A DNA stretch of 58,548 nt, filler included, from Sphacelaria rigidula (lineage: Eukaryota), in NCBI GenBank assembly GCA_964200075.2. It is 8 parts of 8 records of this genome, joined end to end, with 100 filler letters (N's around TTAATTAATTAA, not from the genome) between each part and the next. Parts side by side here need not be neighbours in the genome. Positions count along the whole stretch, not along the records: positions 36,657 to 43,887 come from CAXNAA020015852.1; 7 more parts are not named here. One strand, given 5' to 3'. Position numbers and translations under genes: made by a program. Within the stretch, counting starts at the first letter, position 1. Every line of letters begins with the position of its first letter. This document shows positions 5,388 through 58,548 of the stretch, piece after piece. A model generated the notes under the pieces. It made no database searches. It saw only the letters and a program-made list of their open reading frames with translations, and was not told the origin of the DNA.

Positions 5388-5432
<45 letters not shown>

Positions 5433-14486: not shown

Positions 14487-14520
<34 letters not shown>

Positions 14521-17413: not shown

Positions 17414-18216
17414 CAGCAGCTTCTCGAAGTCTACGAGGATGCAGCCGCACATGGCCCCCCTCCCCTGGCCATGGTCCTTGGATGTGGAAAACACCGTGAA
17501 CACCTTCGCCCCCTTGCTCAACGACACGCCCTCCGAGTGAGCCTCGTGCGCCCTCACAATGTAGCTGAGGTTACCTTGCGAGAGGAAGTCGTCAATCGCC
17601 TTAGCTCCGAAACAGATCGCCCCCCCACCCCTCAAGCTCTCTCCGAAGCCGGTAGAGTCAAGGCCCATTTCCTGTTGTTACACGTGTGAATATTCGATTG
17701 GTCCACTTGACTCACAAGAGTACATGGCGGTTGATGGAGAGGCCAAGTAGCCCTCAATCATAAAAATGTCCAACGGCAGTCAACCTGACACAACGTGAAC
17801 AATACATGGCCAATGGTTGACATGGAAAAAATTGTACAGCGTGAAGTATTCACGTATTACGACGTTTGTTGGAAAATAGTTGCATTGGGCCCATACTTCG
17901 CGCAACACAATTTTTCCATTGCAGCTATTGACCATATACTGTTCTCAGTCTGCAACATTCGGTGGGTAAAATTAAGGATTTCCGAGAGCCACCGCATCAG
18001 CCCTTCTACTCAGACCCGAGGTCAAAACATACTTTATCCCGGACAACAACGCACTAGGTGAAATCACTCGTCTGGGGGGGGGGGGGGGGGGGCGCACCAG
18101 AGGGGGGGGGAAAATGTGCGAGGGGAAAAAAATCCACCACGNNNNNNNNNNCCCCCCCCCCCCTCCCCCACACAACCACTAAAAAAAAACCCCACACACC
18201 CCACGCCCCGAAGCGG

Positions 18217-18257
<41 letters not shown>

Positions 18258-29069: not shown

Positions 29070-32000
29070 GGTACGTGTACGAGAGGGTACTGACCACCCA
29101 TGAAAGTTGCTGTGACCGAAACAACGGGCAGTTGGTGGTTCAGAAGACCGAGAATGAGAGCCGGTCGCCCCGGTGGCTCAGTTGGTAACCTCGTAACCTT
29201 CTGGTGGTTGAGTTGTGGGGTTCGANNNNNNNNNNNNNNNNNNNNNNNNNNNNNNNNNNNNNNNNNNNNTTAATTAATTAANNNNNNNNNNNNNNNNNNN
29301 NNNNNNNNNNNNNNNNNNNNNNNNNAGGAGCCCCTGAACCAGACAAAATTTCGCGAAAAAAGTGCACCCCTACCGTAGCATTGCTCGACCACCCTGGAAT
29401 TTAGCAGTTCGGTAGGTATTGGTGATTCCGATGGAAAGCATTTTCATAATTTGTCGCTGTGTGTGAGTGTGTATTTTTTTTGCGCCCTTTACCGGCCTCC
29501 GGGGGTCTCGGCGTGAAGCCCCCCGGAAGCCGGTACAGAATGTCTCACAGAGAAAAAAGAAAGTTGTGCGTCCTGGAGTAAACAAGGAAACATTGTACAA
29601 AATATCAAAATATCGTTGCTGCGTAACTCGAAAACCTGATCAAGCTTTTACTCGTTGTGACGAACGCAAACGACGCACTACAATCATCCTTCATCGCACA
29701 AAGGCGCAAAACTTCACGCCGTGTTTTGGAGTTAGACTGAAATGTGCACACATGTACTCTGAGTCGCTAAGAAGCTTTGGATAAACGCGTTTTTATCTAC
29801 CCTCATTTTTCACCCGTCACAGGGAGGCTCCTTCCTCCCTGAGACCCCCCAAGAGACCCGTGGGACCCTCAAAATCCGGTGAAATAAAAAAAGTAACGAA
29901 AAAACATTGTCCATCAGAAGTTTTGAAGTGACTCGATGTACATCTGTGCAACATTTCAGAGTCTCGGCGTGAAGTTTTGCCGATGAATACATTTTCGGTG
30001 ATAGCGCGAGCCAGCTTGTGATAACGTTTTGCCAAAAACCATGAAAATAATACAATTTACGACCGGTTCGCGTAAACTTACGTCCTCAAATTCAATCCCC
30101 ATGAGTGATGAACCACGTTCCCCCCGAGAAAAAAGCACGGTCAGCTTCCGCTCAGCTGTTTTTTACAGCATCATGTTATCCCTTGGACCGCGGTGAGGGT
30201 AGTTCATCTGGATCACGCACACTTTTTTCAAGTGAATATTGATGTCGATTCAGCAGGTGACCTACCCTCGCGGTCAAGGGGTTAACCTCACAAGCTTGAA
30301 CATCTGAAGTTGCACCATAGCCGCAGAAACGGTCATTGAGTGTTCGAGCACGTATGAACCGTTGTACATCAAGTTGACAAAATGTGAACGTACAGACGGC
30401 ATCGGTCCGCATGAACCGAGGTCGCGGGCATGTGTCTGAAAGAAAGAGGGTCCAGTAATGTAATGCAACTTACACAGCACATCGCAAACCACAAACCACA
30501 TCAAACCCGGAGCACGGACGAGGGAGGGTGTTTCAACTTTATACGGTAGCTAACTACAAAAAGTGGAAAGCACAATCGATGGAAACGACTTCCCTCGCAG
30601 CGTAGCCCTACATTAGGCACACGGTGGCTACCTGTGGCTGAGTGATTTCGAGATTGCGGCAGCGCAGGCACGGGTGTAGCACAAATCATGCATCCTGTGC
30701 AGACCATAACACTTGTACAATCAGCAACCACAGCGGATATCACGGGGCGGGTATGTTTTGTAGGACTTGCGCATACGCGGCACGTATAGTGTCGTAAGGC
30801 AACCCGCATGAACTACAACTACAACTACAACAGTACAGCAGAGTACCTTTCGAACTAATACACCAGGACTAAAGCTCTGATGAGCAAAAGTAACAGGCAG
30901 ACGGTATGGTGCAGCAAGTGGCACGTCTGACGACCCGCTTCCTCTGGTGAAGATATTTTTCATTTTTCGAGCTTCCAGGCAAACCACAGATGCCCGGAAT
31001 TCCAAACTGCGGGGTGTTGCTGCACCGCTCTGTTCTGTGCCGTACGTAGTACGTAGTAGCATGATTTTCCTCAGATACGATATCGACACCCCCGAAGGAT
31101 AAGTCTGACTCCTTTTCCCGATGATCCCATTGAAAATATGACATATATACCTTTGAAGAAGCGGTACTGTACCGGGAGATCAGACTCTTTTTGTCAGAGC
31201 AAATCGACTAAAAAAGCTTGCAATGGAGGGGTGCTATACGTCGTGACATACAGGTAGTACGAAAGGTCGAATCTAAAAAATCATTGTTCCGCAGACCTCC
31301 AGGTGTAACGTGTCTGTACGGTGGCGTACGTGACGCCAACAGCAATCAAGGCTGAGATAAACGCCCCCTACAACAGTGCTGCACAACGTTCTCACCTTTT
31401 GACACATTGGGCGCAACCACACCAGCAGCGACAGCGGAAATACCAGCGACAGGACAACAATACAAGTTGAAATGATAGGATGGAGACAAGACAGATGTAC
31501 TGTACTGAGTATCGATGTATAGTACTCAGTATCGAGTATGCTATATCCCCTTTTTTGTTTTTACAATCGATTCTGAGATTATCAGGCCCGTGACCACAAC
31601 AAATGTATTCATTGACGTCATTACCATCTTTATTCGAGAATAAATAATAATAATACTTCGAGGTATATTGCACTACAGTATACATTTTGTCCGTAAGCTG
31701 CGCGCACTGTCGCTGGTATTGCACTCTGAATTACCCATATCCGTTCCCCATTCTAAGCTGTACTTAAAGTGGTTTTCAGTTGATACGAGTAGCCACATAC
31801 AAAGTTTCGTTACAAATGGAAGGTGCAGCGACGATACGGATATATATGTTATTATTATGTATATTATGTATTATACAACACAACAGCTCGTCAATTTGTG
31901 CAGCACGCAAAACAATATACGCGATACTTGGTCACCCCGAAATAGCCTGCTGTCGTATACACTTTTCTCTTTCGTTCGTTCACCTGGATAACATCCATCT

Positions 32001-35174: not shown

Positions 35175-36293
35175 CTACCATATCGTTTCGATCGTTTTAT
35201 TCACGGACAGTTCGTACCAATGTCTCAAAGCTCAGTACCATTTACTCTCAACACGTAACTCAACTCTAGTTTATGCGGTCTGGCTACTTGGGGCAAGCCA
35301 GTTATTTGGATCCAGACAGTGTTACCAAATTCGGGCTATAATAGTGAAAAATTGGGGTGTCGCATGATTTTTCACATCTGTCCCACCCCTTGCGCTCCGC
35401 TGTCGTATTCTATTTTGTTTTTTTCACATCGTGGCCAGTGCATGATGACTGGGCTTCTACTTTGGTTCGTAGACTACGCTTGTTTTCGCCGGAAGCCACC
35501 AATATTTTGTTTCCGGGTCATGTTTTTGGATTACTGTTCCGAGAGCCATGGAAAACTGTTGTCCCGAAATGACCATTATCCCTCATCACCACCTCTTGTG
35601 CGATCAGAGAACAAGCAGTCTGTTCCTTTGTCCGACAGCTGAAAGATGTTGGGAGTATTTTTTTTCCTTCGTCATGCCGCATGGGAAGTGTATATTGACT
35701 GACCTAACACGAAGCCAGCCAATGATCGGGAGTCGTGAGGGATAGATAAACCACTTATTGGTTAATACAATGCGACAATCGATCAGTCTATCATCTCAAC
35801 CGCCAACTCTGCGGCATTGTGAACGATGGATATAATTTCTTTATTCACTGCTGAAGGGTGAGGAGTTTAACGACCAGCAGACCTCACCTGGGCTCGAACA
35901 GGCTCCTCGTGTCTGTATGAGAAAGTGAACTCCGAATGTTTGACTCGTCAAGAAATCGGACGTGAGTCTGTGATATGTGTGTGTACAGAAACCCGAACCT
36001 AATGAGTAGTTTCATTTAGTTTGCGTTATAGCACTCACGCGTCTTGAACAAATATAAAGACATTATGCTGTGCGGTCAAATTGATTTCTGCCAGATGCGT
36101 CCAGTTTGGCAGTTTTGTTCTTCTTCCTCGGGTAATATCTGATTTCCGCTGTTTTGGAAACGTGAGGACGTGAGGAGTAGCAAAAAAAATCCGTTTTAAC
36201 TTGAGTTTGCCGGACGATAGTCGATACGGTGCGGGAGTGCTGATCCGATCTGCAATACCGAAAGGTAAGGCGGGTTGGGAAGGAGGGAGGGGG

Positions 36294-36364
36294 GTGCGTA
36301 CTCATTTGTTGCTTGCCTTGGTCGTTTGACCATTGACCACGCATCCCTTTCGAGACGGAGCACG
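36294..36364 (+). mobile_element. Interspersed repeat B (about 70 bp); other copies at 36522-36556(+), 43988-44053(+), 51108-51175(+), 54917-54984(+), 55091-55158(-)
   Basis: gtactcatttgttgcttgcct.agtc.tttgaccattgaccacgcatccctttcgagacggagcac, usually preceded by a G-rich run. Confidence 0.85.
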
Positions 36365-36656
36365 TGTTTGAAGAGAGATGGAAAGAGCTCGGAAATGGTA
36401 CGTACCAGCTACAACTGGCCATTATTATCATGGTAATGATGATGATAGTTATATGAAATTTTTGGACAATGGGTTCAAACCATTCTTTACCGCTACCGGC
36501 TTTATAAGCCGTTACCGGCTACGTACTCATTTGTTGCTTGCCTTAGACGTTCGACCNNNNNNNNNNNNNNNNNNNNNNNNNNNNNNNNNNNNNNNNNNNN
36601 TTAATTAATTAANNNNNNNNNNNNNNNNNNNNNNNNNNNNNNNNNNNNNNNNNNNN

Positions 36657-37145
36657 AGGGCGGTGGTGCGGCCGTAATAAATAGATTCAATTTGAACTCG
36701 GGGGGTGTTAGTCATCATTGATTTTGCCCACATCTGACCCTCTGGGGGCCCGACGAGAACAAGTGCCACACGCCAGTTGAGGGGGGTGTATGAGAGATCA
36801 AACACTTGTAAAGACCTCTTTAATTTGCAGCGTGAAAACAAATACGTATGGTGGTGACCCAACTATTTCTAGTGTGGCGCATAGGAGTCCGTCCATGCTG
36901 CAACCTGGGGCACACGCTGGTCGCTGAACACCTGGGTAGACTACGAGTAGCTTTCCAGAATTATTCCGATGTGAGGAAATCATGCATTACAAGCTGGGAC
37001 GAGAGTGCTCTACGATCAACTACTTGTCGTTGCATTTGAGATCCACGCCATCAACCGCCGACAGCCAAGGTCTTGTGGCTTTCATGCAACACTGTCGGTA
37101 GTACGGCAGGCAAACCCGATCATAGCTAGCTTTCGTTGCTCTACC
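36657..37145 (+). pseudogene. Degenerate partial second copy of the KDZ transposase 5' region, inverted relative to 42510-43010
   Basis: Shared blocks gatcaaacacttgtaaagacct, cattacaag.tggg.cgag, gagtgctcta..atcaac..cttgtcgttgcatttg and cacgccatcaaccgccgac..tcttgtggctttca. Confidence 0.85.
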
Positions 37146-37175
37146 GCACTTACTCGCGACCGAAGTTCGCAACAG

Positions 37176-37599
37176 GTATGAAAACTAAACACTTTGATTT
37201 TTCTAAAGTACATCCCCCCAATTGAAACGACTCTCAAGACCTGAGGGAAGGTGGCCGCCTCGGGTCCGGGTGAACACGCCAAGATACCGTCGAACAGCAA
37301 TATCAAACTCTTCTGGGATTGGTATCAGGCAGTCCGTGGAGAGCGGAACAGAAATCGACAAGTTACCGTTCGTATTAGAAAACAATGCGCATGAAATGTT
37401 TTGCAGGTTGGAAAACATGCATTTTTATTGAGAAAAAACTATCCGTACCCCCATTAGTTTTGTATGCGGTTGAAAAACCTCTACCGTCCTTCGTTAATAC
37501 CTGGCGGGGGGACAGGAAAGCCGTCCTCCCTCAGGTCTTGAGAGTCGTTTTAATTGGGGGGATATAGTTGAGAAAAATCATAGTGTTAAGTTTTCATAC
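37176..37599. mobile_element. MITE (424 bp) with about 75-bp TIRs
   Basis: Left gtatgaaaactaaacactttgatttttct...cccccaattgaaacgactctcaagacctgaggga matches the reverse complement of 37527-37599. Confidence 0.9.
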
Positions 37600-37741
37600 T
37601 GACCGTACAAAGCACCCGGGAATCAAATTGCAACGTATCAGCACAGATACGGTAGCATTGGCTCTTCAAAGTGCAAACGCCGAGAAGCAACTTCGTTCAT
37701 CGGCGACAGAAGCTCCTAGCAAGCAAGACCATCTGTACGCC

Positions 37742-40700
37742 TTATAACAGCACCAAGTCTTCGCTCAAAAACGTCACGGCAACTCTGCCGAACCGATCAA
37801 AAGATCGCATCAGGGGAGTCATACAAAAGCACTGCCGGTAGCTCCGCATGTCCATTTCGCATCCCACGAGGTTGTCTTTGGGGTGCCTGATTACGCTGCC
37901 CACGAGGCGATCCACCGTCCTGCAGTCGATTACCTGGTTCTCGAGTTCATTTACGAGAGTAACCGTAAAAGCAAAAGCATCACAGCCCATTACGTTCACA
38001 GAGCGCAAGAAGCTTTTCTTCCTTGCGTGATTCTGCTCGTAGGTATTGAGGTTGACGCCCGCCAACTCGTCGAACCTCTCTAGCTCACCAAACAAAGCTC
38101 GACGTTGCGGGCCGTGATTTGTTTCGTGAGGTCCGTTGGGGGATAGGTACAGTAGTCCGGCGCACTTTCCGAGAACCGGAAGAGGTTGTCGAACGCGGGC
38201 GTTGCGGGCGGCTCGATGTTGAAGGGAAGGTCATGGTCTTCGACAAATCCCTCCTCCCTCACACTTTCCTCAGAATTAAAGCCGGATGGTGCAATCTGCA
38301 AGCACTTCACAGCGTGGTCGGGGGTCCCAAACCCAGCCGCATCACGTGGAATATGTACTGCGGGAGTAGCGACAGTAACAAACAGCAATTGCCAGCAGGA
38401 GAATAAATATAGAAGATGTAACGGAGAGGGCGCTGCTGAAAAGGGAGAACACTTCCTCATGTAAATCGTGAGGAAACGGGAAAAGCACGTCCCACGGGAA
38501 CCAAGGGTATACCCATGATCATGCATGCCATAGTCATAAGACCATTGCATGCATGATCGTGAGTATACCCTTGGTTCCCGTGGAACGTGCTTTTCCCAAG
38601 AGAGGGGCGTGAATAAATCTTGGCAAGTTTGAATACAATGAAAAAGAGGCGACCACAGCAATCAATGCCCGCACCTGCTTTATCTTTCATGCGGTCATCG
38701 GCGGGTTGTAGTCCGGCAGCGATGAAGTCCACCTTGGCCCGCCGAAAAAAATACGACAGGGATTGATGACTCTAGATCGACGACACAAATGACAAAAAAA
38801 TCCATCCTCGATCCGTGAAATCCCGTGTGAGGCCACGGTAGAGATAACAAAGAAACTGGCAATCATTCCCCTGATTTTTGTGTGTCTGATCGTTTGTAAT
38901 TTGAAATGCAATTCTGGTGAAGAAAAACTCCGTAACCACCGGGAAACGAATCATGCCCTGGAATGATTTCAACGAGCAGAGCAAGTCATTGCCAGGTTTC
39001 AACACGAGTCTAGCCCTCTTTGAAGGCGCGGGACGATGGAGAAAGGCGAAGGAGGTAGCTCTTGACAACATTTGGTTTTAAACATAGAAAATTAATGTCG
39101 TTGGAGTATTTTGGAGACGTTTCTCCCTCGAGGAAACGTCTTGTACTACGGGGGCCACGGGGGCCACCAATTTCACCAAAAAAAGCGGCATGTGCGGTCT
39201 CACGGGACCAGCATCGACCTGAAAATATGCACGTACGCTCCCGACGTCAATGCGCTGAAAAGCGATTGTCGAAATATTCGATGTACGTACGCCTTGTTGC
39301 GACATACCAAAACGTCTGTCTCAATGTTGAACGGGGTATGGTCTGTTTTTTTCACTCATGTCGGGAACCTCTTAGTGTTTTGATGCTTCATGATATCAAT
39401 CACTTCGGAATCTTCATCATTTCGCACTGTCGAACACGGGCCATGCAAAGGTGGGTTGCACACCCGGAACTCATAAAGCTGGGCCAGCGCGCAGAGTAAT
39501 TAGACTGTGGCGATTGCTTACCTCACCGTATGCGAGTAGTGCTGCATATCCTTCATCGTTGACTATTTTCATTTCACGGTCGACGGAGTCGGGGACCAAG
39601 GCCTCAACAGAAAAGCCGTGCAAGCTGGGTAGAGTCGGTGCTCCACTAATACCCATCGCACCAGTAGCTGTCGCCAACACCTGGCGGAGAAACCTTGTTG
39701 TTTTATCTTAATCGCTCCGGGGACGACTCTCCCCGTCGCCCCCACCGATCGCCCAGCAATCCTTCATTCTCGCCTCCGTGACCCTGCACACCTCCATCAG
39801 AACTACAGCTGTTTCATACAAGCTGAGGAAGTACAGTCCCTCTTCGTGCAATCGTCTCCAGCTGTTGACTACGGTGTCGCGAACGGCGACGGCCCACCTA
39901 TCCGCCGTATTTTCACTTGCTTCGTGAAGGAGACTGAGGAAGTCCAAACCGGGCTGGTGTGAGGCCGAGGGGCTCGCGCGGTGGGAGAGATCGTACACAT
40001 CAGCGACGGCCTTTTGCCGATGGTCGGGTGGTCGAATCATAGGTTCGCAAGGCGCCACGGGGTGGGTGTGGCACCCATGTTGGCCAGAGCAGGAATCGAA
40101 ACTTTGCGCAGTTTGCGGTGGATCAACCGCACGTCCTCTGACCCTGCAGCGGTGCTCTCACTACCCGTCGTGCTGTCTTCATCTCCCGCCTCAACTCGGG
40201 GCAGGGCCCCTCCGTTTTCGAGCAAGTGCGGACAGCTCTTCTGCATGATCGTTTGCACCATACACGGTGTGTCTGTCATGAGTACAACGGGTGGAACCTG
40301 AGGTTGTAGAGAACCAAAACGGCAATCATAACGCAAACCACGGGTTGGGTCACAATGAATAATTTCTGGCAGACAATTGTATCTTTCGAGTCGCCGGCAT
40401 ACCCCGAACCCCTCACTTGTATGCATGCTCGTGAATCGCTAGTACCAATTTGTAGCGATTACGGTATGAGATGCAACGAAACGCGACTCACCAGCAGGTG
40501 TTTCACCATTTCCACAACATCTTTTGCGCCCTCCGCCCTCCAAAAAAACATGTGCGCGACCTGAATCCCGTCGGTCGTGTGCAACCCTTCCACATTCGAT
40601 GTCGCCGCTGACCCGCGTCCCAAGAAAATTTCGAACACTCTTCGCTGCCTCTGGTACGTCAGATGAAATGCGACTGGAGTCGCTTGAAGATATCCACAAG

Positions 40701-43490
40701 CATTGCCTTCGTTGTGTAGCTGGAAACAAGAACGCCAGGGCCGTGAGGTTCGCTTAGGGAAAATGACAGTCACAACCGAAGAGATGGAAGCATCGCATTG
40801 ACATACTACAGCGTAGCAAAGACGGTCATGTTGGAGATTTTGGCTGCAATGGAAACAATCGCGTCAAATTATTCGGAGTTGTGAAGGCAAATTTGATAAT
40901 ATTCTACATAGACCTTGAAACGACTGTTGACGATGGGTGATGCGTAAATCAACGCACAAGCATAGGAAACGCGTGACTCTCAGGTACATTGCTAAACTCA
41001 CGAACTCAAGCCAGCCTTCCCTCTGAAGTATCGGACGTAGAGACGATCGAGGTCGTCCTTCATCATATCGTCGAGGATCGCTGCTCCCTCCCCAGAGTCA
41101 CGCAAATAATTCACGAGGGCCTCACCGTCGCCGCTCTCTACCGAACCAGCCTGCGTGGTAACCCCCGAAGCGCCCAAGTGGAATATATCTGACTTCCGGT
41201 TATAAGGGCTGAAATTGACCGAGGTTTTTGTCACAAACTGGTATCGCCGACCGAACATCACTGAACTCATCATACTGAGCTTGAGCTGCTGCACACCGAG
41301 GTCCATATCTATGACCATTTCTTCTCGTGCGTGCAACAGCAGTGCTGCCGATACGTTGTCGGTCGCCAACTTGTTACATCCATCGCAGGTTTGTAGTCCA
41401 GGGTAATGGTCGTCCATGAAACTTCGATAGTCGCATGGGTGATCGGTCATGGCCTCGAAGGCCAGGTAGCAATCTTTCAGCTGTTGCACAAGGCCGTCGC
41501 TAATGCCGTTTGGCATGGGGAAAAGGAAAACAAGGCGTGCACAGAGGAATGACAAATAGCGACGGGTTGGCCAAGGAGCCGGGAAGTCAATATGTTGCCC
41601 TCCTTGCCCTTTCCCCCAACAGTCGTCCTGGGTATTTTATACCCGCGGACAGGCGAAAACCATAACCCAAAACGAAGGGTGAACGCACGGCTGGACCAAC
41701 CTCCGCGGAAAATTATTGCGATACAACTCATATACGTGCTCATCTCTGCGAGAGTCCGGGATTTGCCTTCACCCAATCGCGGTTGTTCGTGGGCGCCCGC
41801 GCGATCTCCTCAAAGACGGACTTCAAGGGCACGCCCATCATGTACCGCTCCCTTGCGCACAGGAGGAGACGCATGTCCACCAACAGCTTGTTGTTGAAAT
41901 TAAGCATAACGGTCCTTCTCCAGTCGTCTCTCGCCCATGGACGTGCACAACAACGTGTGCACTGCCTCATCTCGACCTCCACGCGGCGGACAGCCGCTCC
42001 GGTGTTCCCCTATGCGGGATGGGTGGGGCAAGCGAACACGAGACCACGATGTAACGTTTAATTCACAAAACATACAAAACAAGGCGTACCGTCAATGATC
42101 CAGTCGGATGTTGCATAACTCAAGTGTTGAGCTTCAAGGCAACATGGATGCCAATGACGTGCATGGTTCGGCGCCAAAGTATCCCTGGTGCATGCTTGCT
42201 GAGTACGCATGCTTTGCCATGCACACCACACGCTTTCTGGAATACATGAGGCACAATATCAAGGTTCCGAGTTCAAACACTCGTGACAATACACCTGCAG
42301 TCGGTTTGCCTCCCTCTCTATGGGCGCCATACTTGTGTAAACGCTAGGGCGATCTCGTCGGCGAGCGGCTGATAGAGCAGCGCGCATCGTGTGCACCTCC
42401 TTTACATTGTGTGGGATGAGTTGAAAGATGGAGCGGTTTAACTTTACAACCCCTGTCAATTTCGGTGTTGTTCTGAGGTGATTGTACAGACGCCGCGACA
42501 GTCAGTACAGACAGCAGAGCATCGGAAGCTAGCTTTGACCAGGTTTGTCGGGCGTACTGCCGCCGGCGTGGCTTGAAAGCCACAAGATGTTCGCGGTCGG
42601 CGGTTGATGGCGTGAGTCGCAAATGCAACGACAAGCGGTTGATTATAGAGCACTCTTCTTTCACGTGAAACATATCTCGCCCCACCTTGTAATGAATGAC
42701 CTCCTCACTTGGGAATTGTCGAAAGCTACCGCGACACACGCAGCGGGTGGGTGGGTGTTCAAGATTGCAGCATAGAAGCACCCCCGTGCGACACGCCAGC
42801 AACAGTTAGGTCATCGCCGTAGGTGTCTTTTTTCACTCCGGATAACAAGAAGGTCTTTACAAGTGTTTGATCCTTCATACATCCTCCCAAATGGCGTGTG
42901 GCATGTTCTTGTCGTCGCGCACGCACAGGAACGAGTACACATGTCGGGTAAAATCAACAATGAGAACACCCCCCGAGTTGCGGTTGGATCTGAAATTGCC
43001 TCAGCACCGTCCTTGCTGGCATGTGTTTCACAGAGAACAGTAGCGGGGACGGGAACATCGCCCTGCTTTTCAACAACGTGTTCTGCAGCGCACAGAGGCG
43101 CGTCCTGTCCAAAAGAGAGGCAGAGAGGAATCGATATTTGCATTGGTAAGCTCCACAGACAAGAAGAGACGGCACCTACACCTCGGCACCTCGATGTTCT
43201 TCGGGGGCCTGTGCAGCAATAACCTGCCTACCGGCACATGGAAAATTGGGTAAATAAATCCTAATGACATGCATGATGCCAGTTTCTCGAGCAATTGGGA
43301 ATCGCCGAGCGAGGACACACGAAGGGTACGGGCAAGGAACTTCCTCTCTGCTATTACTCTTCCGGTGGTATCGTCATCGACACGCGCGTACACCGAATTC
43401 GTTTGGTGCACCTAGCCATAACTGCTTGACTGCTGCAGATTTTTTGGGAGGACGATGGTTTTCCCTGGTGTAACTATTTGGCGCCATTCC
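37742..43490 (-). mobile_element. Intron-containing, decayed KDZ (Kyakuja-Dileera-Zisupton) transposase of the HMGXB3/CxC4 type
   Basis: Collinear motifs recalled from HMGXB3-like transposases: SWIM-like CVC..IHYKV; CxC4-like LIP..QVYCHEC, DDW..LNFNNKLL and CYLAFEAMTDH; catalytic region VFEIFLG..DGIQVAHMFFWRAEGAKDVVEM|VPPVVLMTD; KVSIPAL; HETNH..ELAGVNLNTYEQ..RSVNVM. Clean GT-AG intron at 40491-40298. In-frame TAG at 43412-43414 and several frameshifts. Confidence 0.8.
38478..38597. repeat. 120-bp near-perfect hairpin (58-bp arms, ATAA loop) containing the 5' end of repeat A
   Basis: Left gggaaaagcacgtcccacgggaaccaagggtatacccatgatcatgcatgccatagtc versus the reverse complement of the right arm: 5 mismatches. 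Confidence 0.95.
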
Positions 43491-44916
43491 TGCGAAAAAA
43501 ACATTATGCCGCTTGAAACCCATTGTAGTGTTCGACCCCAGAAATTAGGGCGTGTCTTAGGCCAACTCTTATGAGAGCGTTTGTAATTTTATTTTGCAAC
43601 AATTTAAGAGGAGTTTTTTTTTTCTTTGTCATCATGGTGAACGGGCACAAAATACACAACCACGGCAAAGAAGAAGAAAAAAATGTCGTTTAAAATTATT
43701 GCAAAATAAATTTCTAAACGTTCCCATAATAAGAGTTGGCCTTGGCACTTTTTTTTCGATCGAAAAAGTGCGATCGAAAAAAAGTTGTCCTATCTGATAG
43801 GTGCACCGCATTTATGTTCCTCGAAGGCTTCAACTCAAAATTATAACTAGCGGCGCGCGGAGAAGAATGCAACGAGTGAAAAAATAGNNNNNNNNNNNNN
43901 NNNNNNNNNNNNNNNNNNNNNNNNNNNNNNNTTAATTAATTAANNNNNNNNNNNNNNNNNNNNNNNNNNNNNNNNNNNNNNNNNNNNGTACTCATACTCA
44001 TTTGTTGCTTGCCTCAGTGGTTTGACCATTGACCACGCATCCCTTTCGAGACGGGGGGGAAGAGGGGCGGGGGAGTGCCGATGAATACTTTTGGGCGTAT
44101 GTGGCAACGCTCCATACTTTGCTGGGGTGGACAACTTTTGTCCCGCGTACCTGGAAGTCGTTGCGAGGTTGTCCCATGCGTACGTGACGTACCCTGATAC
44201 CTTGCACATACCGTGATAGCCTTACCAGAGCTTGACAGGTGGCGAAAACACGCTTCATGATATCTCCCTGGCCACAAGTGAATCATTTATTTTTGCCGAT
44301 CACATGGTTGTCACGAAGAAAAGTTGAGCTGGGTCAGTAACACGCTCCGTCCCTCTCGTCGGAGAACGCTTTACACCTGTAAATCGCTAGGCAGCACTGT
44401 AGTGCACTCATCCTCAGTTCACCAAAGCGACATATCGGGACCCCCCATTGGATTGGGCCATCATATCTACGGTACATTAGGAGAAAGTAATTGGCCATCG
44501 GGATCGTTCTAGTTACAGCGTGGCTCCATTGTCTCGAGGGAACATGATTACGACCCAACACTGACTAAGGCAGTCAGAGCACGGGTAATCTCCCACCCAA
44601 TAATAGAACGAAAAACTAACACGCTCTCGAAGACGCCTCGTCAACGGTTCAACAGCTGAAGTTCAAAACACCATGAGTACTATCCGAAAGAGTTGAAGAC
44701 GTGAACCCATCAAGATTTACTAGTGTGGCGGCTCTTGTTTTGAGATGTTGACACGCTCTCTCTCACACACACACATACACACCTTCGCATAGATGAGAAC
44801 CTATTTGAACCGTGCTAGTAGTCGCCGACTCGCCAGGGGTAGGCAGGTCAATATTAGGATGTTTCATCTCACCCCCTACACACACATTTCGCTTCCGACA
44901 CCCCGCACTGGTATAG

Positions 44917-48225: not shown

Positions 48226-48921
48226 GGCATGTCGCCTATGTTGGTTGGGAACGATGGCGCGAGTATTTGGGGTATGTGTGTGAATGTCTTGGTCACTGGG
48301 TGATGCCATCGGCAATCAACGTGCTGCGTGGTCGCTTGTCGTGCAAGTTCAAAATGCTACCGTCACCCGCTATCATTGCCTTCGTCGAGAACGCGTATCT
48401 TCATTTAAAACTAAAAATGATTCTCTGGGAGATGGTCGCATCTTCTTCCCGCCGTGACTGACTCGTGACGGCTGTCGTATTTATCTCGCAGTAACTGACA
48501 TGGTAATGATATATACTGTTGGCGTTCTGCGAATTAACGACTGTGTGCTGCTTTCATACGATGTCGTCGTGCATGGTGGTAGATTCGACGGGTCGGGTTT
48601 CCGAGTCATGCTAGGATGGGGGGTGTACTCATGATCATGCATGCCACAGTCAGAAGACCATTGACCTCGCATCCCTACAATGCGAGGGCGGAGCACGCCG
48701 GGGTTTCGGAGGGGGTTATTTTGGGCCGTTTTCTTCCACGAAATTTCACTTAAACCGCCGTTGAAAGCAGCCGGCAGTTGTTCGAACGAACTTGCTTCCG
48801 ATAAATAACGCTCGTTCATACTGGTTGACACCGCTTTCACCCAAATGCAAGCGCACCGCGAGTGTTTCAGGTCGTTGGTTGCATCTACGAGCACATTTTC
48901 CCGTGAAACCGAACACCCCCC

Positions 48922-50675: not shown

Positions 50676-51479
50676 GATGACGTAGATTATGCGAGTACAG
50701 TCACGTGTGCAGTACGGGCAACCGAGTCGCCTGACGCCCACCATCAGTCAGGTCGGGTTCTGGGTGCCATTTGTCTGCCTTGCTGTGGGGGTTTGCATAA
50801 GTGTATGTGTGGTGAGTTCGTGTGTGTGTGGTATTGAGTGGGAAAGGTTGAGGGTGTGTTATAGAGTAACAGAGTGTGAGTGGTTGAGGTAAATTGGCTG
50901 AATAAGCAGAGTGTGACAATGAGATAATCAAAACGATAATACTGTTATTTGCCTGAACCAAGCTACTGATCACTGCTCACGCACGTGAGTTGTGTGGACG
51001 CTTACACCCGCATCAGAGCAGTTTATCTGTGATAGGATGTATATTTCTCAGCTTCCATATACTGCAAAATTGTATCTATGTAATGCTACGATTGGGGAGG
51101 GGGGGGGGCGTACTCATTTGTTGCTTGCCTTAGTCATCTGACCATTGACCACGCATCCCTTTCGAGACGGAGCACACGATTGGGGAGGGGGGGGGGGGGG
51201 GGGGGGGGGGAAGCACTCNNNNNNNNNNNNNNNNNNNNNNNNNNNNNNNNNNNNNNNNNNNNTTAATTAATTAANNNNNNNNNNNNNNNNNNNNNNNNNN
51301 NNNNNNNNNNNNNNNNNNCCCCCCCAGGCAACCCCCCTTCCCCCCCCCCCCCCCCCTCCCCCCCCTCCCCCAACCCGGTTTTTAACCCTCCCCCCCCCCC
51401 CCCCCCCCCCCCCTCCGACCTTCACGCTCATATGAAAAAGGGTTTAGCCCTCGGACACCACCGAGTACAAACTCAGCAC

Positions 51480-54400
51480 CTTCGCCTTTGCTGCGGCCTT
51501 TTTGGCCTCCTCCTCCGCCTTCATCTTAGCTGCGGCCGCCGCTGCTGCTGTCGCCGCCGCCGCCGCCTCCCTCTCCTCTTTTTCCTGTAAAGCCTTCGCT
51601 TCAGCAGCCTGACAGGAACAACACCGACCGTCAGAGGGTGTTTGCGAGGCCTAGGGTATGCATATCGTAACCCGGGGCACCCCGCATTCTTCTTCGGGAT
51701 GCTTCGCGCACGTCCAACGACTCTTCGGTGTTGATTTTCGTATGAATTCCGAGGACCAAGGACGGATCAGGGACGGCCGAGAGTCGATGATGACGATAAC
51801 CTGATGTATATATGAATAAGTCAATGGCCAAGACCACGACCAAGACTGCCTCGACACAGAGTCGTAGTCATTGGACGTGTAGGTGTTGGTAGTATCAGCT
51901 ACGCAAAGGGTGTCCACTTCGAAGGGAGCGGGAAGGGAGAGAAGACAGGCATACCGAAAAGTCCATGGTGCTCGTAGAGTATGAGTATCGACAAAGAACA
52001 CAACAACGAGTTTGATAATACCACCTCAGAGTTTGCTTCCCCCCCACCCCCCTCCCCAGCGGGACCTCATCCCTCGACTTTAGACCGACCCACAACACGC
52101 AAACGGGACCCGATCGTCACCTTTTTGGCCTTGGCTTCAGATGCTTGCTTCTGCAGGGACGCAACGAATAGAGGTTCACGTGCAGATACAGGGGGGTGGG
52201 TACATCAGCGGTGGAGGCGATTGAGGAATACACGACTACTCGACTACACAAGCACTGCAGACAGCAAACACTACAGGAGTAATCACCTACATCTCATCTT
52301 GTGCTCTGACGAAGGATGATATACTCCTTCCGATCAGCAGTAGAAGGTTATGAAAATTTGCACCATAAGTGAAAGACACTTGTGATTCTCGACTCGTGAG
52401 CTTGATTTCCACGAAAGGCATTTCCATTTTAAAAAAACAAGTCCTGTCCCCCACCACCCCCCCCCTTCCTTTCCCTTCACACTGTTCCTTCTTGCTGTTT
52501 CTTCGATTCAAAGGTTGTACTTCTGGCCACCCTGTGGCTTCGACACCGGTCGAAAAACACGGGAGCATTATATCCGTAGTTTCAAAAACTTGATTCTACA
52601 GGGAGCCAACATCAATCGATTCCATGAACAAAATCAGTCACTCGCATCACATCGAATCGAATACCTCAAACCAACGCCATATACCTCGGCTGCCTTGACC
52701 TTGACCTTGGCTGCGGCAGCCTCCGCCTCCTCCTGCTTCTTGCGGGCCGCTTCCTCCTCCTGCCTCCTGCGGGTCGCCGCCTCCTCAGCAGCCGCACGCG
52801 CCTTGGCCAGCCACAAAATACAGACACAGGCACACAAAACACGATGTCATCGACGGCGGTCAAGTAAATAGACTTCATTTTCGAAAGCACGCAAGCACAC
52901 GCGGGGGAAGAAGACAGAGGCCGCTTCACACGATTCACAAAAGCATGCAGACAGCAGAGCCTTTGACTGATTGCTGCTTCGAACGCAAGCACGGAGGCCC
53001 ATCCACATGCACATACGATCTTTTAACGTGAGGCGTGGAGATGCATCTCGCGTATATTGGCGTGCGCTTGGCACAGGTACGTGTCACGCCCTGGTCCCAA
53101 GGAGAGCAACCACAACCCCCTCTCGCGCCCTCGTCCAAAGCTAAACCCAACAGCAATAGCAAAAGGCAAAAAGGCAAGACATACATACCCAAAGGAACGG
53201 ATACGTGTCGAAGCAAACGCGTACCCACACTTCCGACGCCTTTCTACAGCGGGGGGTACATGTCATGTGTACGGAAGGCGCAGAAACACAAACCATGGAA
53301 ACGTGAAATTTTTCCAACAGACTTTGAATACACGTTCTGCGGCATTGTACGTTCCGCGGTGGAGACGTTTCCTGGACTCCGGATAGTGCGGCGAGGAAAG
53401 CATCCACCATTTCAGAGACAGGATACTCACCTGAGGAGTGGACTATTTTCGCCATTTTCTGCTTATTTGTTTTCCACTATAAAAACAACCTAACCCATCG
53501 TAGTCAATCATCAGCAGCCAGCTTGTTTAAGCGGACTTGGGCCTTTCAGCGAAACGCCCAACTCGCGCTAAAAAGTAAGTGAAAACACATGCTCTGGGGT
53601 AAACTGGATGAAATTTTTCGCACCCAAATGGATTCTTCAAAGTGTCGCAACGTGATTGAGACCTCAATCACTCACCGTAAGTACGCTGTGCTCGTCATCG
53701 ACTGACACCACAGACTCAACACGTACCATTAATTTTGACACACCGTATATACTGCCAAAGAAACGTGCACACTTCCGTCACCATGAAAGGTCAGCTGGAC
53801 GGCATCTCCATACTTCACAGAGAAATACAAACCTGTCCCGCTACACCAACAGCCCCGCAGCTTACCTTTGTATCCGACGCCTTACTCTCGGCAGCATTGC
53901 TGTTACCGTAACTCCCGAAAGACAGCTCCACATCACCATCATCCCGCTTAGGAGACGCCGCCGCTACCGGGGTCGACACCTTCGCGCCACCACCCCCGGC
54001 CCCAGCACCAGCCGCCACAGCAGTGGCTGCCGAACCCGTCCCAGACGGCGCCGCGCCGCCGTGTCCTTTGAACGCGGGCGGCGAAGCCTTTACTCCGCCA
54101 CCCTCGGCGTCACTCGCGGTAGCCGTGCGAGGTTTGGGCGCGGCCGCGGCCGCCCGTGCCGTTGCCGCAGGAGGCGTGGGAGTAGGGTCCTCCTTGAGCG
54201 CCGCCTGTGCCTTCTCACGCATCTCTCTAGCAGCGCTCGACTCCCCCCCGGATGAAGTTGGAGACATGGAAAGACCTCCTGTTTTTCTACCAGCGCCTCC
54301 CTGCTGTGCGTGCATCGGGAGAGTCCCCGCCCCTCCTGCTCCCATACGTCCCGCATTCACTGGAGGCGGGCCCCCGCCTGAACCGCCGCCGCCGCCACCC

Positions 54401-54683
54401 TGACCCGGAAGATCTATCGCCATGCCCGTCTTCGGGTCGACAATCTCCAGTACCTTCCGTTTTGGTGCGGATGGGGGAGGCGTCGGCCCGGCTAGGGGAG
54501 ACACACCGCCACTTGCTGTGGGTCCACCGGGTCCGCCAAGACTGCCTGGTCCACCGGGTCCACCGGGTCCACTGGGTCCGCCGGGCGGCGGTCCTCCGAC
54601 TCCGGCTCCGGGAGGTCCGCCTGCTTGTTGAGGCGCTGCTGGTTGTTGCTGTTGCTGCTGCTGCTGTTGCTGCGGCGGAGGCG

Positions 54684-54714
<31 letters not shown>

Positions 54715-57700
54715 AGATGCGGCGTTTGCTCGTGGTCCGACGGAGTTCGGGGGGGGTGCACCTGGCATGCCCTGTACCGGTTGGCCCGGCATCTGGCATG
54801 AAGCAACGATCGCCCAATCATTAGAGGCAGAACAAACGGCGGACAAAAACACATGACAGCATGAACGAGGCCAAGAAAACGTATATGTTGAAATTGGTCG
54901 AAGGTGGTGGGATGGGAGCGTACTCATATGTCGCTTGCTTTAGTCGTTTGACCATCGACCACGCAATCACTTTCGAGACGGAGCGAGTGGTGGGGTAGGA
55001 GGGGTAGGTTGCGAACAAATTCGTTTTGATATTTTGATAATAAGTACTACAAAGCTTGTAGCTAATGTTGGGCCCCCCACACCCCTGATGGTGCTCCGTC
55101 TCGAAAGGGATGCGTGGTCAATGGTCAAATGACTAAGGCAAGCAACAAATGAGTACGCTCCCCCCCTCCCCCCTCCCCCCTCCTACCTCGTCGCCGGCCG
55201 AAAGTCACATCCAAACCTGAATATAGAAAAAATTATGGAACAATGAACGGCATTCAGGGTTGGTACGAGTATACTAAACCCTACTGCAATGTGTACCAAA
55301 CATTGCACGGGTCGGACGAATCAACGATTCGTCTGGAAATGAAATGATTTCAATCCTTGGGCTCCGCTTTCGTCGTTGCAACCCAGGTAAGCGCAGCCCA
55401 GGCAAGTGGAACGCCGCAAAAATTGCGTGGAGGTCTTTTCGACCAGCGGTCAACTCTTCTGTCTCTTTCGAGCAATCAGGCTTGAACAATCGTGGATTTG
55501 GTAATTCCGACCGGCGATGATCCGTCCGAACCGTGGAAAATCGCGATATGGTCCGGTAGGGGTATCGAGTCTTGTTCCGAACAATTCTGTACGGTGCAGA
55601 AGCTAATTTCCTTATAAAATATCTCGTACATCTTTTGTATGTAAGTATCCGAATTTCTGGAGGATACACCCTACACAACGGGATATTCAAAAATATCGCT
55701 TTCCACGAGAAGTGATCTCAGAAGCCTTGTTTTTGTTTCTCTGTAAACCTGTTTGCCATGATAGTAATATTGCAAACTTGGTGACAGGTCTCAAAGCTGC
55801 CACCGCTGTTTCATTCCACACAAAAACATTCGACACTTTTACAGCAGTTAAAGCACATAACGCTCTGACACCCCTACACAAACGTACACAAGTTACTTTC
55901 TGGCAAAACAAAATTCCATCATATCGTGACTTCACCAACCCCTCTTTCAAGAAAATGTTATTCGAACTCTGGTTCATCATCACTACCTTACTACCGAGTA
56001 ACCATCCTGTTCTCCCCCAGAGGAAGGGACGCATCGTCCTCTACAGCCACGAACCCGACGGAAACGCCTCAGTCAAAAATGCACAATATGCTTCAAAACT
56101 TCTTTACAGGTCAAGCGGTTCCAAAACGTTTCCCGATCAGAAATAAGTAACAGCCAACAATATTCTTCCACTCTCTTTCAACAATGCACCACTCACCGGC
56201 ATCATGCCCTGTGGTATGTACGGCGCCGGGTAGACGCCCATCTGACCAGTGCCCATCTGGCCCCCGTAAATCATCTGCGAATGCATGTAGTTGGGGTTCC
56301 CGCCGTACTGGAAAGTCGAGACGAGGGGAAGGAGGGGAGGGGGGGATGCAGGGCCGAGGGATAGATTGCACACACACGAGCGGAGGACAAGAGATGTCCC
56401 ATGGGGTCTTTTCTCAATTTGGAGCAACTAGCGTCAGGGTCAAAATCAGAACGTGTGCAAAAAAAAAATAGTTAAACGTGACGGGAAAACACTCACATTA
56501 TTCATGGGATAACCTCCCATGTGCCCCTGCTGCGGCTGCTGCTGCGGCCACATGCGTTGGGGGTGGTGTGCCTGCCCCTTTCCGCGAAGAAACAAGGAAC
56601 ACACGAAGCGAGTGGAGGGGGAGTGTACCCATGAACTCGCATGCCGTGGTACGAAGACAATTGATATCACATCCCTACAAATCCAAGACAGACCATGCGG
56701 GGTTCTCGCCAGACCAGGCTCGCAATCAGTCACCTAGCGCGAAGCGCCGTGATGTGTTTGGCGGAGGCGGGGGGGGGGGGGGGGGAGGATGGAATTCGGA
56801 AACAGCAACAACTACTATATTTTTTTGTTTTTGTTTCGCCATCGTCTTCTCTGTTGCTAATTGAAAGTGTGTACTACAGTACGCCCCCCGCCCTTCTCGC
56901 CCCGTCTCCTTTGTTTCCCTGTACTCGAGCTTCCTCTCATCGCGGGTATCGCGCTTAAACTGTTGGGAATACTCATCTCGTGCCCATTCATGCGTAGGTT
57001 CACAGCCGATCACCTCTAATCTCAACACCACCAGAGCAACCCATTTTCTCCTTCCACGTTTCAATCAGGTCAACTCAAACATGACGCCAAAATCACGACC
57101 GCTGCACCCACACCTTCGTTCTCTGCACAATCAAGGCGTGGCATTCCTTGCAGCTTCGGAACCACCCACAAAATTCTCTGGAAGCCCGATGTGTGCGGGA
57201 GGGGGCACGGTTTCAAAAGTCCAAGTACTTGGGCTACCACCAGACGTGGTCAGACTCCTGAAAACGGACATGGTTCAAGTCTCCAGATGGTGCTCCCCTG
57301 CTCGGGGACAGTACTTACACAATTTTCGATATCTTGATACGAGTTCGACGTGAGTAAGAGACATCGAACTGATGTGGTGATGAAAAGAAAAAAAACATCA
57401 AGGAGCCGGCGGAGTTCCCTAGAGAACGCACAACACCCTTCAGAGGATGCAAAAAAGTATCAGCTCTCCCATTATAGTCAGTTTGCTCGTGTGTGTTGGA
57501 ACACTCCTACAGCAGGCTCATATTGCTTTGTTGGTGGTTTTTGGACAAGATGTAAAACGTTTCCATGAGGCCAACAAATGGGGATGAGGGGGGTGGGCGA
57601 AGCTGAAAGATACGCCATTCTTCGGCACGATTTATACAGATGTATGAATTCTTGCGGAGACCGATTAGAGATCTTCATCTGCACCACACTAAAGTATGAC

Positions 57701-58419: not shown

Positions 58420-58548
58420 CTGTCATGTAAAGAAATAGAGAAAATAATACATGAAAATAGGGGGGGGGGGGGGGGGGGGGGGACACGGGAGGAGGGGGGG
58501 AGAAGGGGGGGGTGTGGCAACTGGAGCCAGGGGGGGAGAGCCAAAAAG

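What the first reader, a model, noticed from the sequence alone, without database searches (positions are those of the whole stretch)
37742..43490. Spliced HMGXB3/CxC4-type KDZ (Zisupton-related) transposase in a probable brown alga
Seen: at least eight minus-strand ORF fragments that look like noise in the ORF track fall in the order SWIM-like finger, CxC4-like region (CYLAFEAMTDH), SAP-like spacer, catalytic core (DGIQVAHMFFWRAEGAKD / PPVVLMTD) and C-terminal HETNH..NLNTYEQ. A canonical phase-0 intron (40491-40298) splits the core. Known: HMGXB3 is a domesticated Zisupton/KDZ-derived gene, and this subtype is best described in animals. Inference: this is a highly divergent, intron-rich stramenopile lineage of the element, probably unannotated and now decayed (stops and frameshifts). 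It is the best candidate for an undescribed system in this window.
Basis: partly seen in the sequence, partly recalled or inferred. Interest (0 to 1): 0.85.

Follow-up and report, generated by a model that had tools for sequence, protein, structure and literature searches.

The report
Decayed Zisupton-like transposase gene relic
This is a broken, intron-containing leftover of a Zisupton/KDZ-type "jumping gene" enzyme in what is very probably a brown alga, a kind of element already catalogued in brown algae, so it is real but ordinary.

Summary
On the minus strand, 42401 to 39471, five colinear exons encode a relative of brown-algal proteins (best: a partial Laminaria digitata protein, 59% identity, E 7.5e-53). 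The window's own ORF 41740-42009 passes Pfam's cut-off for CxC4 (PF18717, E 2.1e-6). The phase-0 intron at 40491-40298 is confirmed exactly.

The copy is dead. It has two in-frame stops, two frameshifts, a probable GT-to-AT splice-donor change, and no 5' part.

- The "SWIM finger" (about 42500-43490) lies in very high-copy repeats and has no homology to the relatives' N-termini.
- The "C-terminal HETNH..NLNTYEQ" ORF (37742-38230) has no detectable relative or profile match.
- The "SAP-like" label has no profile support.

No Pfam KDZ (PF18758) match was found for the catalytic part. A protein-language-model search places a relative's core next to animal HMGXB3 clusters (0.94) and a KDZ-bearing cluster (0.87).

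KDZ elements, often giant, with nested insertions and pseudogenised transposases, were already curated in Ectocarpus (PMC12477816). Verdict: a new member of a known kind, of low interest.

The parts
42333..42401 (-). Exon a (remnant): the first cysteine pair of the CxC4 region (RRCTRC...AFTQ). Stop codons lie directly upstream, so the 5' part of the gene is missing.
   Evidence: tblastn of P0001, P0083 and P0100. Upstream translation shows stops. The donor GTATGG starts at 42332.
42010..42332 (-). Intron 1 (323 nt, GT..AG, phase 0)
   Evidence: Spliced alignment to P0001 and the junction sequences.
41744..42009 (-). Exon b: CxC4 zinc-chelating module
   Evidence: Pfam PF18717, E 2.1e-6, 28.1 bits against a cut-off of 26.9, on ORF 41740-42009. 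49% identity to P0001.
41500..41743 (-). Intron 2 (244 nt). It begins AT instead of GT, a probable splice-donor lesion (inferred).
   Evidence: Junction sequence AG|ATGAGC and acceptor TTAG|C. Relatives diverge right after the same R codon.
41002..41499 (-). Exon c: holds CYLAFEAMTDH, the candidate first catalytic Asp (CDGCNK), VIDMDL, FSPYNRKS and a helical ('SAP-like') segment
   Evidence: 59% identity to P0001, E 7e-53. Alignment A2 of 21 sequences. The helical domain has pLDDT 89-97 in the P0001 model.
40720..41001 (-). Intron 3 (282 nt, GTGAGT..CAG, phase 2)
   Evidence: Junction sequences and the alignment to P0001.
40492..40719 (-). Exon d: core segment (NVEGLHTTDGIQVAHMFF...). It carries an in-frame TGA at 40661-40659 and a frameshift near 40633-40630.
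   Evidence: Two-frame tblastn match, codon print-out, and 98% identity to P0076.
40298..40491 (-).
   Evidence: P0001 reads HFLV|PPVV across it. Junction sequences.
39471..40297 (-). Exon e: PPVVLMTD (candidate second catalytic Asp), LLENGGALPR, and a conserved tail up to ..AYGEVS. It carries a frameshift near 40075-40072 and an in-frame TAA at 39710-39708.
   Evidence: tblastn of P0001, P0047, P0049 and P0055 in two frames. Codon print-out.
37742..38230 (-). 162-codon ORF (HETNH..NLNTYEQ). Its membership of the gene is unproven.
   Evidence: No Pfam hit, no relatives, Atlas best 0.79. The only link is one contig of run X4 that joins 38723 to 39473.
36695..37142 (+). Left arm of a 72%-identical inverted repeat. 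It belongs to a very high-copy repeat and is cut by the piece edge at 36657.
   Evidence: Summed depth is about 6e5 against about 65 for the unique contigs.
42516..42979 (-). Right arm of the same inverted repeat. It abuts the truncated 5' end of the gene.
37176..37599 (.). Nested MITE-like element (80-nt inverted arms, 89-92% identical, 264 nt between), high copy
   Evidence: Inverted repeat I11, blastn, depth 9e4-2.6e5.
38478..38597 (.). 120-nt palindromic very high-copy repeat (family D3, 9 copies in the window) nested in the 3' region
   Evidence: Inverted repeat I24 and family D3. Summed depth 1.1e6 in that bin.

Best explanation
The stretch 42401-39471 (minus strand) is a dead, 5'-truncated, intron-bearing copy of the transposase gene of a Zisupton-like (KDZ-group, CxC4/HMGXB3-type) cut-and-paste DNA transposon of a brown alga. 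It sits in a mosaic of unrelated high-copy repeats.

In intact relatives the protein has four parts in order: an N-terminal cysteine/histidine finger, the CxC4 zinc module (DNA binding, inferred), a helical domain, and a split catalytic region. In that region ..DGC.K.. and ..L(I/V)TD.PC.. are the candidate first and second catalytic aspartates (inferred from conservation and from the recalled KDZ motif pattern).

By analogy with characterised Zisupton/KDZ elements, such an enzyme would bind terminal inverted repeats, excise the element and reinsert it with 8-bp target-site duplications. This copy cannot do so. It lacks its start and N-terminus, and it has two stop codons, two frameshifts and probably a dead splice donor.

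Shown: the homology, the CxC4 domain, the exon-intron structure, the lesions, and the repeat mosaic. Inferred: the catalytic role, the transposon (rather than host-gene) nature, and the mechanism.
For: - Homology: E 7.5e-53 and 59% identity to a Laminaria digitata protein that itself carries Pfam CxC4.
- The window's own ORF 41740-42009 passes the CxC4 gathering score.
- Family size: 109 proteins at E<=1e-3, of which 1 is spurious. 35 of 109 carry CxC4.
- Every genuine named relative is brown-algal, with several paralogues per species.
- A relative without the CxC4 part (P0005) has animal 'HMG domain-containing protein 3' clusters as nearest named Atlas clusters (0.94 and 0.93, with 177 and 178 shared features), then a cluster with PF18758 KDZ on 13% of members (0.87).
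- Literature: KDZ domain + CxC4 + SWIM is called the canonical Zisupton structure (PMC11343200, passages). Brown-algal KDZ elements are giant, carry nested TEs and often have pseudogenised transposases (PMC12477816, passages).
- Lesions are seen directly. The same sequence, with no gaps, stands in contigs of three runs from two studies (records 5, 7, 12, 14, 20, 22).
Against: - No match to the Pfam KDZ transposase model PF18758: 0 of 9 window ORFs at E<=1, 0 of 109 relatives at E<=0.1, 0 of 10 core-bearing relatives at E<=10.
- No third catalytic residue or C-terminal part was identified.
- Two AlphaFold models leave the putative core below pLDDT 50. Foldseek gave 0 PDB matches at E<=1e-3.
- phmmer with P0001 found no animal HMGXB3 and no fungal KDZ protein, so the tie to those families rests on the CxC4 profile and on language-model features.
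- No private TIRs or TSDs could be shown.
- The central exons look nearly single-copy at >=80% identity.
Confidence: 0.8

Rival explanations
1. It is the pseudogene of a domesticated host gene (an algal counterpart of HMGXB3), not a relic of a mobile element.
For: - The central exons are close to single-copy at >=80% identity: bins 40771-42222 show 68-175 against about 65 for the unique contigs in run X1.
- It has several spliceosomal introns.
- The nearest named Atlas clusters are HMGXB3.
- UniRef calls the Ectocarpus relative 'HMG domain-containing protein'.
Against: - There are many paralogues per species. Ectocarpus sp. CCAP 1310/34 alone yields P0004, P0113, P0114, P0116, P0071 and P0025.
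- There are 108 genuine clusters at 50% identity, mostly fragments.
- No HMG-box Pfam family is among the 14 families matched by the 109 relatives.
- This copy carries at least four disabling lesions.
- Ectocarpus has thousands of KDZ copies (PMC12477816).
Confidence: 0.1
2. One reading: one gene from about 43490 to 37742, with a degenerate SWIM finger at the 5' end. The ORF 38230-37742 would then be the missing C-terminal catalytic part (H-x3-H ... NT.EQ).
For: - Two unusually long minus-strand ORFs lie downstream in the right orientation (193 and 162 codons).
- One contig of run X4 joins 38723 to 39473, so sequence beyond 39473 and sequence below 38723 are neighbours in another copy too.
- Summed depth rises over the putative conserved catalytic exons (40287-40770 and 37625-38350).
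- The H-x3-H and E-containing pattern resembles the recalled KDZ C-terminal motif. This is recall, not a call.
Against: - No Pfam hit for either ORF or for ten further ORFs in 37748-39711.
- No relatives among longer proteins. Atlas best score is 0.79.
- None of the 132 family proteins matches below 39516.
- The 5' 'SWIM' region has no match to the relatives' N-termini and lies in repeats with summed depth of 3e4-5e5.
- The joint is a single contig with a 34-letter side, laid at 80% likeness.
Confidence: 0.3
3. It is not a transposase at all: a CxC4 zinc module fused to a brown-alga-specific protein of another function.
For: The only curated profile that matches is CxC4. There is no KDZ, DDE or RNase-H-like profile or fold match.
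Against: - Pfam defines CxC4 by its association with KDZ transposases (description line).
- The CxC4-free relative P0005 still lands next to HMGXB3 and KDZ clusters.
- Conserved Asp-bearing motifs sit in the expected order.
- The copies are paralogous, fragmentary and stop-ridden, as is typical of mobile elements.
Confidence: 0.07

Closest known systems
KDZ DNA transposons of Ectocarpus (for example KDZ-1_Ec32; 8 curated families, PMC12477816)
   Same: Brown-algal host group. The transposase gene is often pseudogenised, and unrelated TEs are nested inside the element. Several relatives found here are Ectocarpus proteins.
   Different: The window's species is not Ectocarpus: the best named relative is Laminaria at 59% identity. 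No termini could be defined for this copy.
Zisupton-type elements such as KDZx1 of Cryptococcus deneoformans (KDZ domain + CxC4 + SWIM; 8-bp TSD; PMC11343200)
   Same: A CxC4 module sits N-terminal to the putative core. Relatives carry a cysteine/histidine finger upstream of CxC4, seen by eye in P0004, P0083 and P0118.
   Different: No Pfam KDZ (PF18758) or SWIM family is among the matches for the window or for any of the 109 relatives. The gene has many introns. A large helical segment separates the candidate first Asp from the rest of the core. No TSD or TIR was shown.
Vertebrate HMGXB3 (HMG domain-containing protein 3). That it is a domesticated Zisupton-like gene is recalled, not checked in a paper here.
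   Same: The nearest named Atlas clusters for the core-bearing relative P0005 score 0.94 and 0.93. That HMGXB3 itself carries the CxC4 family is recalled and comes from no call.
   Different: No HMG-box family was found in the algal family. phmmer did not reach HMGXB3. The algal genes are multi-copy and decaying, not a single conserved host gene.

Membership tests
Zisupton / KDZ transposon group | CxC-type zinc-chelating module (here CxC4, PF18717) N-terminal to the transposase core | tested here: met
   Window ORF 41740-42009: E 2.1e-6, 28.1 bits against a cut-off of 26.9. 35 of 109 relatives match. P0001, P0004, P0025, P0036, P0118 and P0130 all exceed the cut-off.
Zisupton / KDZ transposon group | KDZ transposase catalytic domain (Pfam PF18758) | tested here: inconclusive
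   The profile test is negative: 0 of 9 window ORFs, 0 of 109 relatives at E<=0.1, 0 of 10 core-bearing relatives at E<=10. Language-model features are positive as a lead: HMGXB3 clusters at 0.94 and 0.93, and a cluster with KDZ on 13% of members at 0.87. The fold could not be judged, because the core is below pLDDT 50.
Zisupton / KDZ transposon group | SWIM-type finger upstream of CxC4 (the canonical Zisupton architecture per PMC11343200) | tested here: not met
   In this copy there is no match to the relatives' N-termini upstream of 42401 and no Pfam hit. The region is high-copy repeat. In relatives a C..C..CxH pattern is visible by eye, but no SWIM family is among the 14 families matched by the 109.
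Zisupton / KDZ transposon group | Terminal inverted repeats and 8-bp target-site duplications | tested here: inconclusive
   A 72%-identical inverted repeat (36695-37142 / 42979-42516) flanks the gene. However, it belongs to repeats with summed depth of 3e4-6e5. It leaves no room for the missing 5' exons, and its left arm is cut by the piece edge at 36657. TSDs could not be examined.
Zisupton / KDZ transposon group | Complete DDE catalytic triad | not testable with these tools
   Two conserved Asp motifs are seen. No relative in hand extends past the ..AYGEVS exon, so the third residue is unknown.
Zisupton / KDZ transposon group | Multiple dispersed copies in the genome | tested here: inconclusive
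   There are many paralogous clusters in brown algae. This subfamily's central exons lie at about 1-3 times the unique-contig depth at >=80% likeness. No genome is held, so copies could not be counted.
HMGXB3 (domesticated host gene) | HMG box plus an intact, conserved, single-copy ORF | tested here: not met
   No HMG-box family is among the 14 families matched by the 109 relatives. This copy has two stops and two frameshifts. Several paralogues occur per species.

The most novel reading that the evidence does not exclude
The brown-algal CxC4 family may be a distinct HMGXB3-like Zisupton clade. Its catalytic region would be so divergent (a large helical insertion after the first Asp, and no recognition by the Pfam KDZ model) that automated pipelines miss it. 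Kelp repeat tables list almost no Zisupton but 18.6% 'ClassII/Unknown' (PMC12595068). Intact members would then be the closest living mobile relatives of the animal host gene HMGXB3. The abundant flanking repeats could be their non-autonomous derivatives.
Probability: 0.15. Interest if true: 0.45.

Novelty: new member of a known kind. Interest (0 to 1): 0.2.

Why it matters
It matters little by itself. It is one dead copy of a transposon type that has already been curated in the brown alga Ectocarpus.

It has modest practical value. It shows that kelp-type genomes hold CxC4/HMGXB3-like transposase relics that standard profiles (Pfam KDZ) and automated repeat classification do not recognise. 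A curated brown-algal KDZ/Zisupton library would therefore reclassify part of the large 'unknown DNA transposon' fraction.

If intact relatives prove to be close kin of animal HMGXB3, they could help trace the origin of that domesticated gene.

Tried and rejected
- **Whole genome:** none is held for this window.
- **Raw ORF fragments against Pfam:** only a sub-threshold UcrQ hit.
- **The search for homologous proteins, 'longer':** nothing for P0001 or for ORF 37742-38230.
- **Atlas on ORF 37742-38230:** best score 0.79, no named family.
- **Metagenome contig scans:** alignments A3 and A5 gave 126 and 104 pattern matches, none confirmed by tblastn.
- **AlphaFold:** the P0001 model (pLDDT 66.3) and the P0119 model (58.1) leave the putative core below 50. 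The second model was not searched because its confidence is too low.
- **Expression:** no RNA holder was listed among the sequencing runs.
- **P0073 (2693 aa, Bicyclus anynana):** the only named non-algal hit. It is a spurious match to a 44-residue tandem repeat.
- **Earlier findings of this scan:** nothing found by place, sequence or words.
- **Rfam and tRNA scans of the window:** nothing.
- **Cargo genes:** no TET/JBP, ULP1 or any other Pfam family at E<=0.01 in the ten longest ORFs scanned from elsewhere in the window. Nothing above threshold in ten further ORFs of 37748-39711.
- **Papers not held:** Böhne 2012 (Zisupton) and Iyer 2014 (KDZ). What I say about them is recalled or taken from papers that cite them.
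- **Inverted repeat as private TIRs:** considered and rejected as unproven.

Full report
**Setting**

The window is not one continuous stretch. N44-TTAATTAATTAA-N44 linkers recur at an exact spacing of 7331 nt, with N blocks starting at 7233, 14564, 21895, 29226, 36557, 43888 and 51219. It is therefore eight pieces of about 7231 nt each. The finding lies wholly in the piece 36657-43887. Anything outside that piece may not be its genomic neighbour. No whole genome is held for the window.

Mostly yes, in its centre.

- The 212-codon minus-strand ORF 40998-41636 hits a partial Laminaria digitata protein (P0001, 449 aa) at E 7.5e-53 and 59% identity.
- tblastn of P0001 against the window gives colinear minus-strand matches:
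  - 42401-42333 (weak)
  - 42009-41743 (49%)
  - 41501-41007 (59%)
  - 40727-40492 (in two frames)
  - 40297-40058 (51%)
- A HMMER search of 1.84 billion representatives with P0001 returned 109 proteins at E<=1e-3, 43 at <=1e-10 and 3 at <=1e-30. Only 8 of the 109 are 300 aa or longer.
- One of the 109, a 2693-aa butterfly protein, is a spurious match to a tandem repeat.
- When all 110 proteins were laid on the window, every hit at E<=1e-3 fell on the minus strand between 42401 and 39516. P0055, P0047 and P0049 extend the gene to about 39471.
- Two short proteins (P0076, P0079) are 98% identical to window exons.

**Exon-intron structure**

| Feature | Coordinates | Notes |
|---|---|---|
| Exon a | 42401-42333 | |
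| Intron 1 | 42332-42010 | GT..AG, phase 0 |
| Exon b | 42009-41744 | |
| Intron 2 | 41743-41500 | |
| Exon c | 41499-41002 | |
| Intron 3 | 41001-40720 | GTGAGT..CAG, phase 2 |
| Exon d | 40719-40492 | |
| Intron 4 | 40491-40298 | GTGAGT..CAG, phase 0 |
| Exon e | 40297 to about 39471 | |

The Laminaria protein reads ..HFLV|PPVV.. straight across it.

**What the parts are**

- **CxC4.** The window's ORF 41740-42009 matches Pfam CxC4 (PF18717, 'CxC4 like cysteine cluster associated with KDZ transposases') at E 2.1e-6 and 28.1 bits, above the curated 26.9. CxC4 is found in P0001, in P0004, P0025 and P0036, in P0118, P0130, P0129, P0114 and P0115, and in 35 of 109 relatives overall. The CxC4 region is therefore exon b plus exon a. 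It is not at the CYLAFEAMTDH motif, which lies in exon c.
- **Exon c.** It holds a conserved ..CDGCNK.ATDN.. motif, then ..VIDMDL....LSM.SPMVF.. and ..FSP.NR.SN.. (alignment A2).
- **Helical segment.** It follows in exon c and continues into exon d. AlphaFold predicts it confidently in P0001 (residues 240-310, pLDDT 89-97). No SAP profile matches, so 'SAP-like' stays a resemblance.
- **Exons d and e.** They carry ..GVEGL..DG...AH.F.. and ..P.LLITD.PC....LLENGGALPR...
- **Catalytic reading.** I read DGC.K and LITD.PC as the first and second catalytic aspartates of a KDZ-type core. This rests on conservation and on my recollection of the KDZ motif pattern, not on a tool result.

**The catalytic domain is not confirmed by profiles or folds**

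- Pfam KDZ (PF18758) matched none of the 9 window ORFs.
- It matched none of the 109 relatives at E<=0.1.
- It matched none of 10 core-bearing relatives at E<=10.
- Two AlphaFold models leave the core below pLDDT 50.
- Foldseek against PDB found nothing at E<=1e-3.

The one positive lead is the ESM Atlas search with P0005, an Ascophyllum relative that lacks the CxC4 part:

- Rank 1 and 2: chordate 'HMG domain-containing protein 3' (HMGXB3) clusters, scores 0.94 and 0.93, with 177 and 178 shared features.
- Rank 3: a basidiomycete cluster in which 13% of members carry PF18758, score 0.87.

UniRef also names the Ectocarpus relative D8LKG9 (P0130) 'HMG domain-containing protein'. Membership in KDZ proper rests on the accessory domain and on a language-model lead.

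**What is not there**

*The 5' 'SWIM finger'.* Relatives do carry a C..C..CxH pattern upstream of CxC4 (P0004, P0064, P0083, P0118; seen by eye). In the window:

- Nothing upstream of 42401 matches those N-termini.
- Stop codons lie directly before exon a.
- The three ORFs in 42344-43411 have no Pfam family.
- Contigs of four runs laid at >=80% likeness pile up there to summed depths of 3e4-5.5e5 in run X1. The 100%-identical unique contigs stand at about 65.

That stretch is therefore unrelated high-copy repeat, and the gene is 5'-truncated.

*The 3' ORF 38230-37742 (HETNH..NLNTYEQ).*

- It has no Pfam hit, no relative among longer proteins and an Atlas best of 0.79.
- None of the 132 family proteins reaches below 39516.
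- Its H-x3-H ... E pattern does recall the KDZ C-terminus, but that is recall only.
- In its favour: the ORF has the right strand and order, two unusually long ORFs lie there, and one X4 contig joins 38723 to 39473, so both sides are neighbours in another copy as well.
- I give it about 0.3.

**Decay**

The copy carries these lesions:

- An in-frame TGA at 40661-40659.
- A frameshift near 40633-40630.
- A frameshift near 40075-40072.
- An in-frame TAA at 39710-39708.
- At intron 2, AG|ATGAGC where relatives imply AG|GT (inferred).

Contigs identical to the window, without gaps, occur in runs X1 and X3. Contigs with 5-9 substitutions and no gaps occur in X4, which belongs to a different study. 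The lesions are therefore not errors of one assembly.

**Surroundings**

- An inverted repeat (36695-37142 against 42979-42516, 72% over 478 columns) brackets the gene. It looks like TIRs at first sight, but:
  - it belongs to repeats of very high summed depth;
  - its right arm sits where the missing 5' exons should be;
  - its left arm is cut by the piece edge.
  I treat it as unproven.
- A 424-nt MITE-like element (37176-37599) is nested in the 3' region.
- A 120-nt palindromic repeat (38478-38597) is also nested there.
- Summed depth over the central exons is about 1-3 times the unique level, so this subfamily is low-copy at >=80% identity. The tool warns that this is only a rough guide.
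- No TET/JBP, ULP1 or other Pfam family was found in ORFs of the piece or in the ten longest ORFs scanned from elsewhere.

**Host**

All genuine named relatives are Phaeophyceae: Laminaria digitata, several Ectocarpus species, Ascophyllum nodosum and Pylaiella littoralis. One run that holds the locus is labelled 'algae metagenome'. A brown alga is very likely. The 59% identity to the Laminaria protein may reflect a paralogue rather than species distance.

**Comparison with what is known, and novelty**

- The 2025 Ectocarpus TE study (PMC12477816, passages read) lists DNA/KDZ with 8 families, 6403 copies, 148 intact copies and 1.8% of the genome. Its elements reach 30.3 kb. [quoted passage not shown] That description fits this locus.
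- Zisupton elements have TIRs and 8-bp TSDs (PMC12730594, passages).
- A kelp genome paper's automated table lists only 20 Zisupton fragments beside 18.64% 'ClassII/Unknown' (PMC12595068, passage). Such elements are therefore poorly classified in kelps.
- I could not compare sequences with the curated Ectocarpus consensus library, because supplements are closed.

The finding is thus a new member of a known kind, not an undescribed system.

**Verdict**

This is a real, decayed, intron-bearing relic of a CxC4/HMGXB3-type Zisupton-like transposase gene in a probable brown alga (confidence 0.8). It spans 42401-39471 rather than 43490-37742. Interest is low (0.2).

Noticed in passing
window 7233-7332, 14564-14663, 21895-21994, 29226-29325, 36557-36656, 43888-43987, 51219-51318: 100-nt linkers (N44 + TTAATTAATTAA + N44) recur at exactly 7331-nt spacing. 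The window is therefore eight joined pieces of about 7231 nt, and neighbouring pieces need not be adjacent in the genome.
   Followed up: partly
window 38478-38597, and 8 other places (family D3, e.g. 7171-7232 and 48618-48679): A short palindromic repeat (58-nt arms, 91% complementary, 4-nt spacer) of extremely high copy number. Summed contig depth is about 1.1e6 against about 65 for unique sequence. Nine copies of the 62-nt unit occur in the window.
   Followed up: partly
window 37176-37599: A MITE-like element: 80-nt terminal inverted arms (89-92% identical) with 264 nt between, termini GTATGAAAAC..GTTTTCATAC, high copy. No obvious target-site duplication was seen by eye.
   Followed up: partly
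window 36282-36375, 43988-44071, 51094-51187, 54904-54997, 6276-6369 (families D4/D6): A second abundant ~94-nt repeat (GTACTCATTTGTTGCTTGCC...). Several copies lie right at the ends of pieces, which suggests the pieces may end where an assembly broke at repeats.
   Followed up: no
window 43559-43742 and 43749-43884: A self-complementary stretch (70% over 194 columns). Many contigs also show a joint that 'goes back 136' at 43884 to 43749, which points to a hairpin-like or tandem repeat structure at the piece's right end.
   Followed up: no
window 14477-14530, 18075-18256, 51171-51215, 58449-58500: Long poly-G runs (20-35 G) recur across several pieces.
   Followed up: no
window 2260-3447(+), 4902-6314(+), 20346-21311(+), 53815-54939(-): Long open frames (321-470 codons) elsewhere in the window have no Pfam family at E<=0.01. 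Some overlap CAG/GCN codon repeats.
   Followed up: partly
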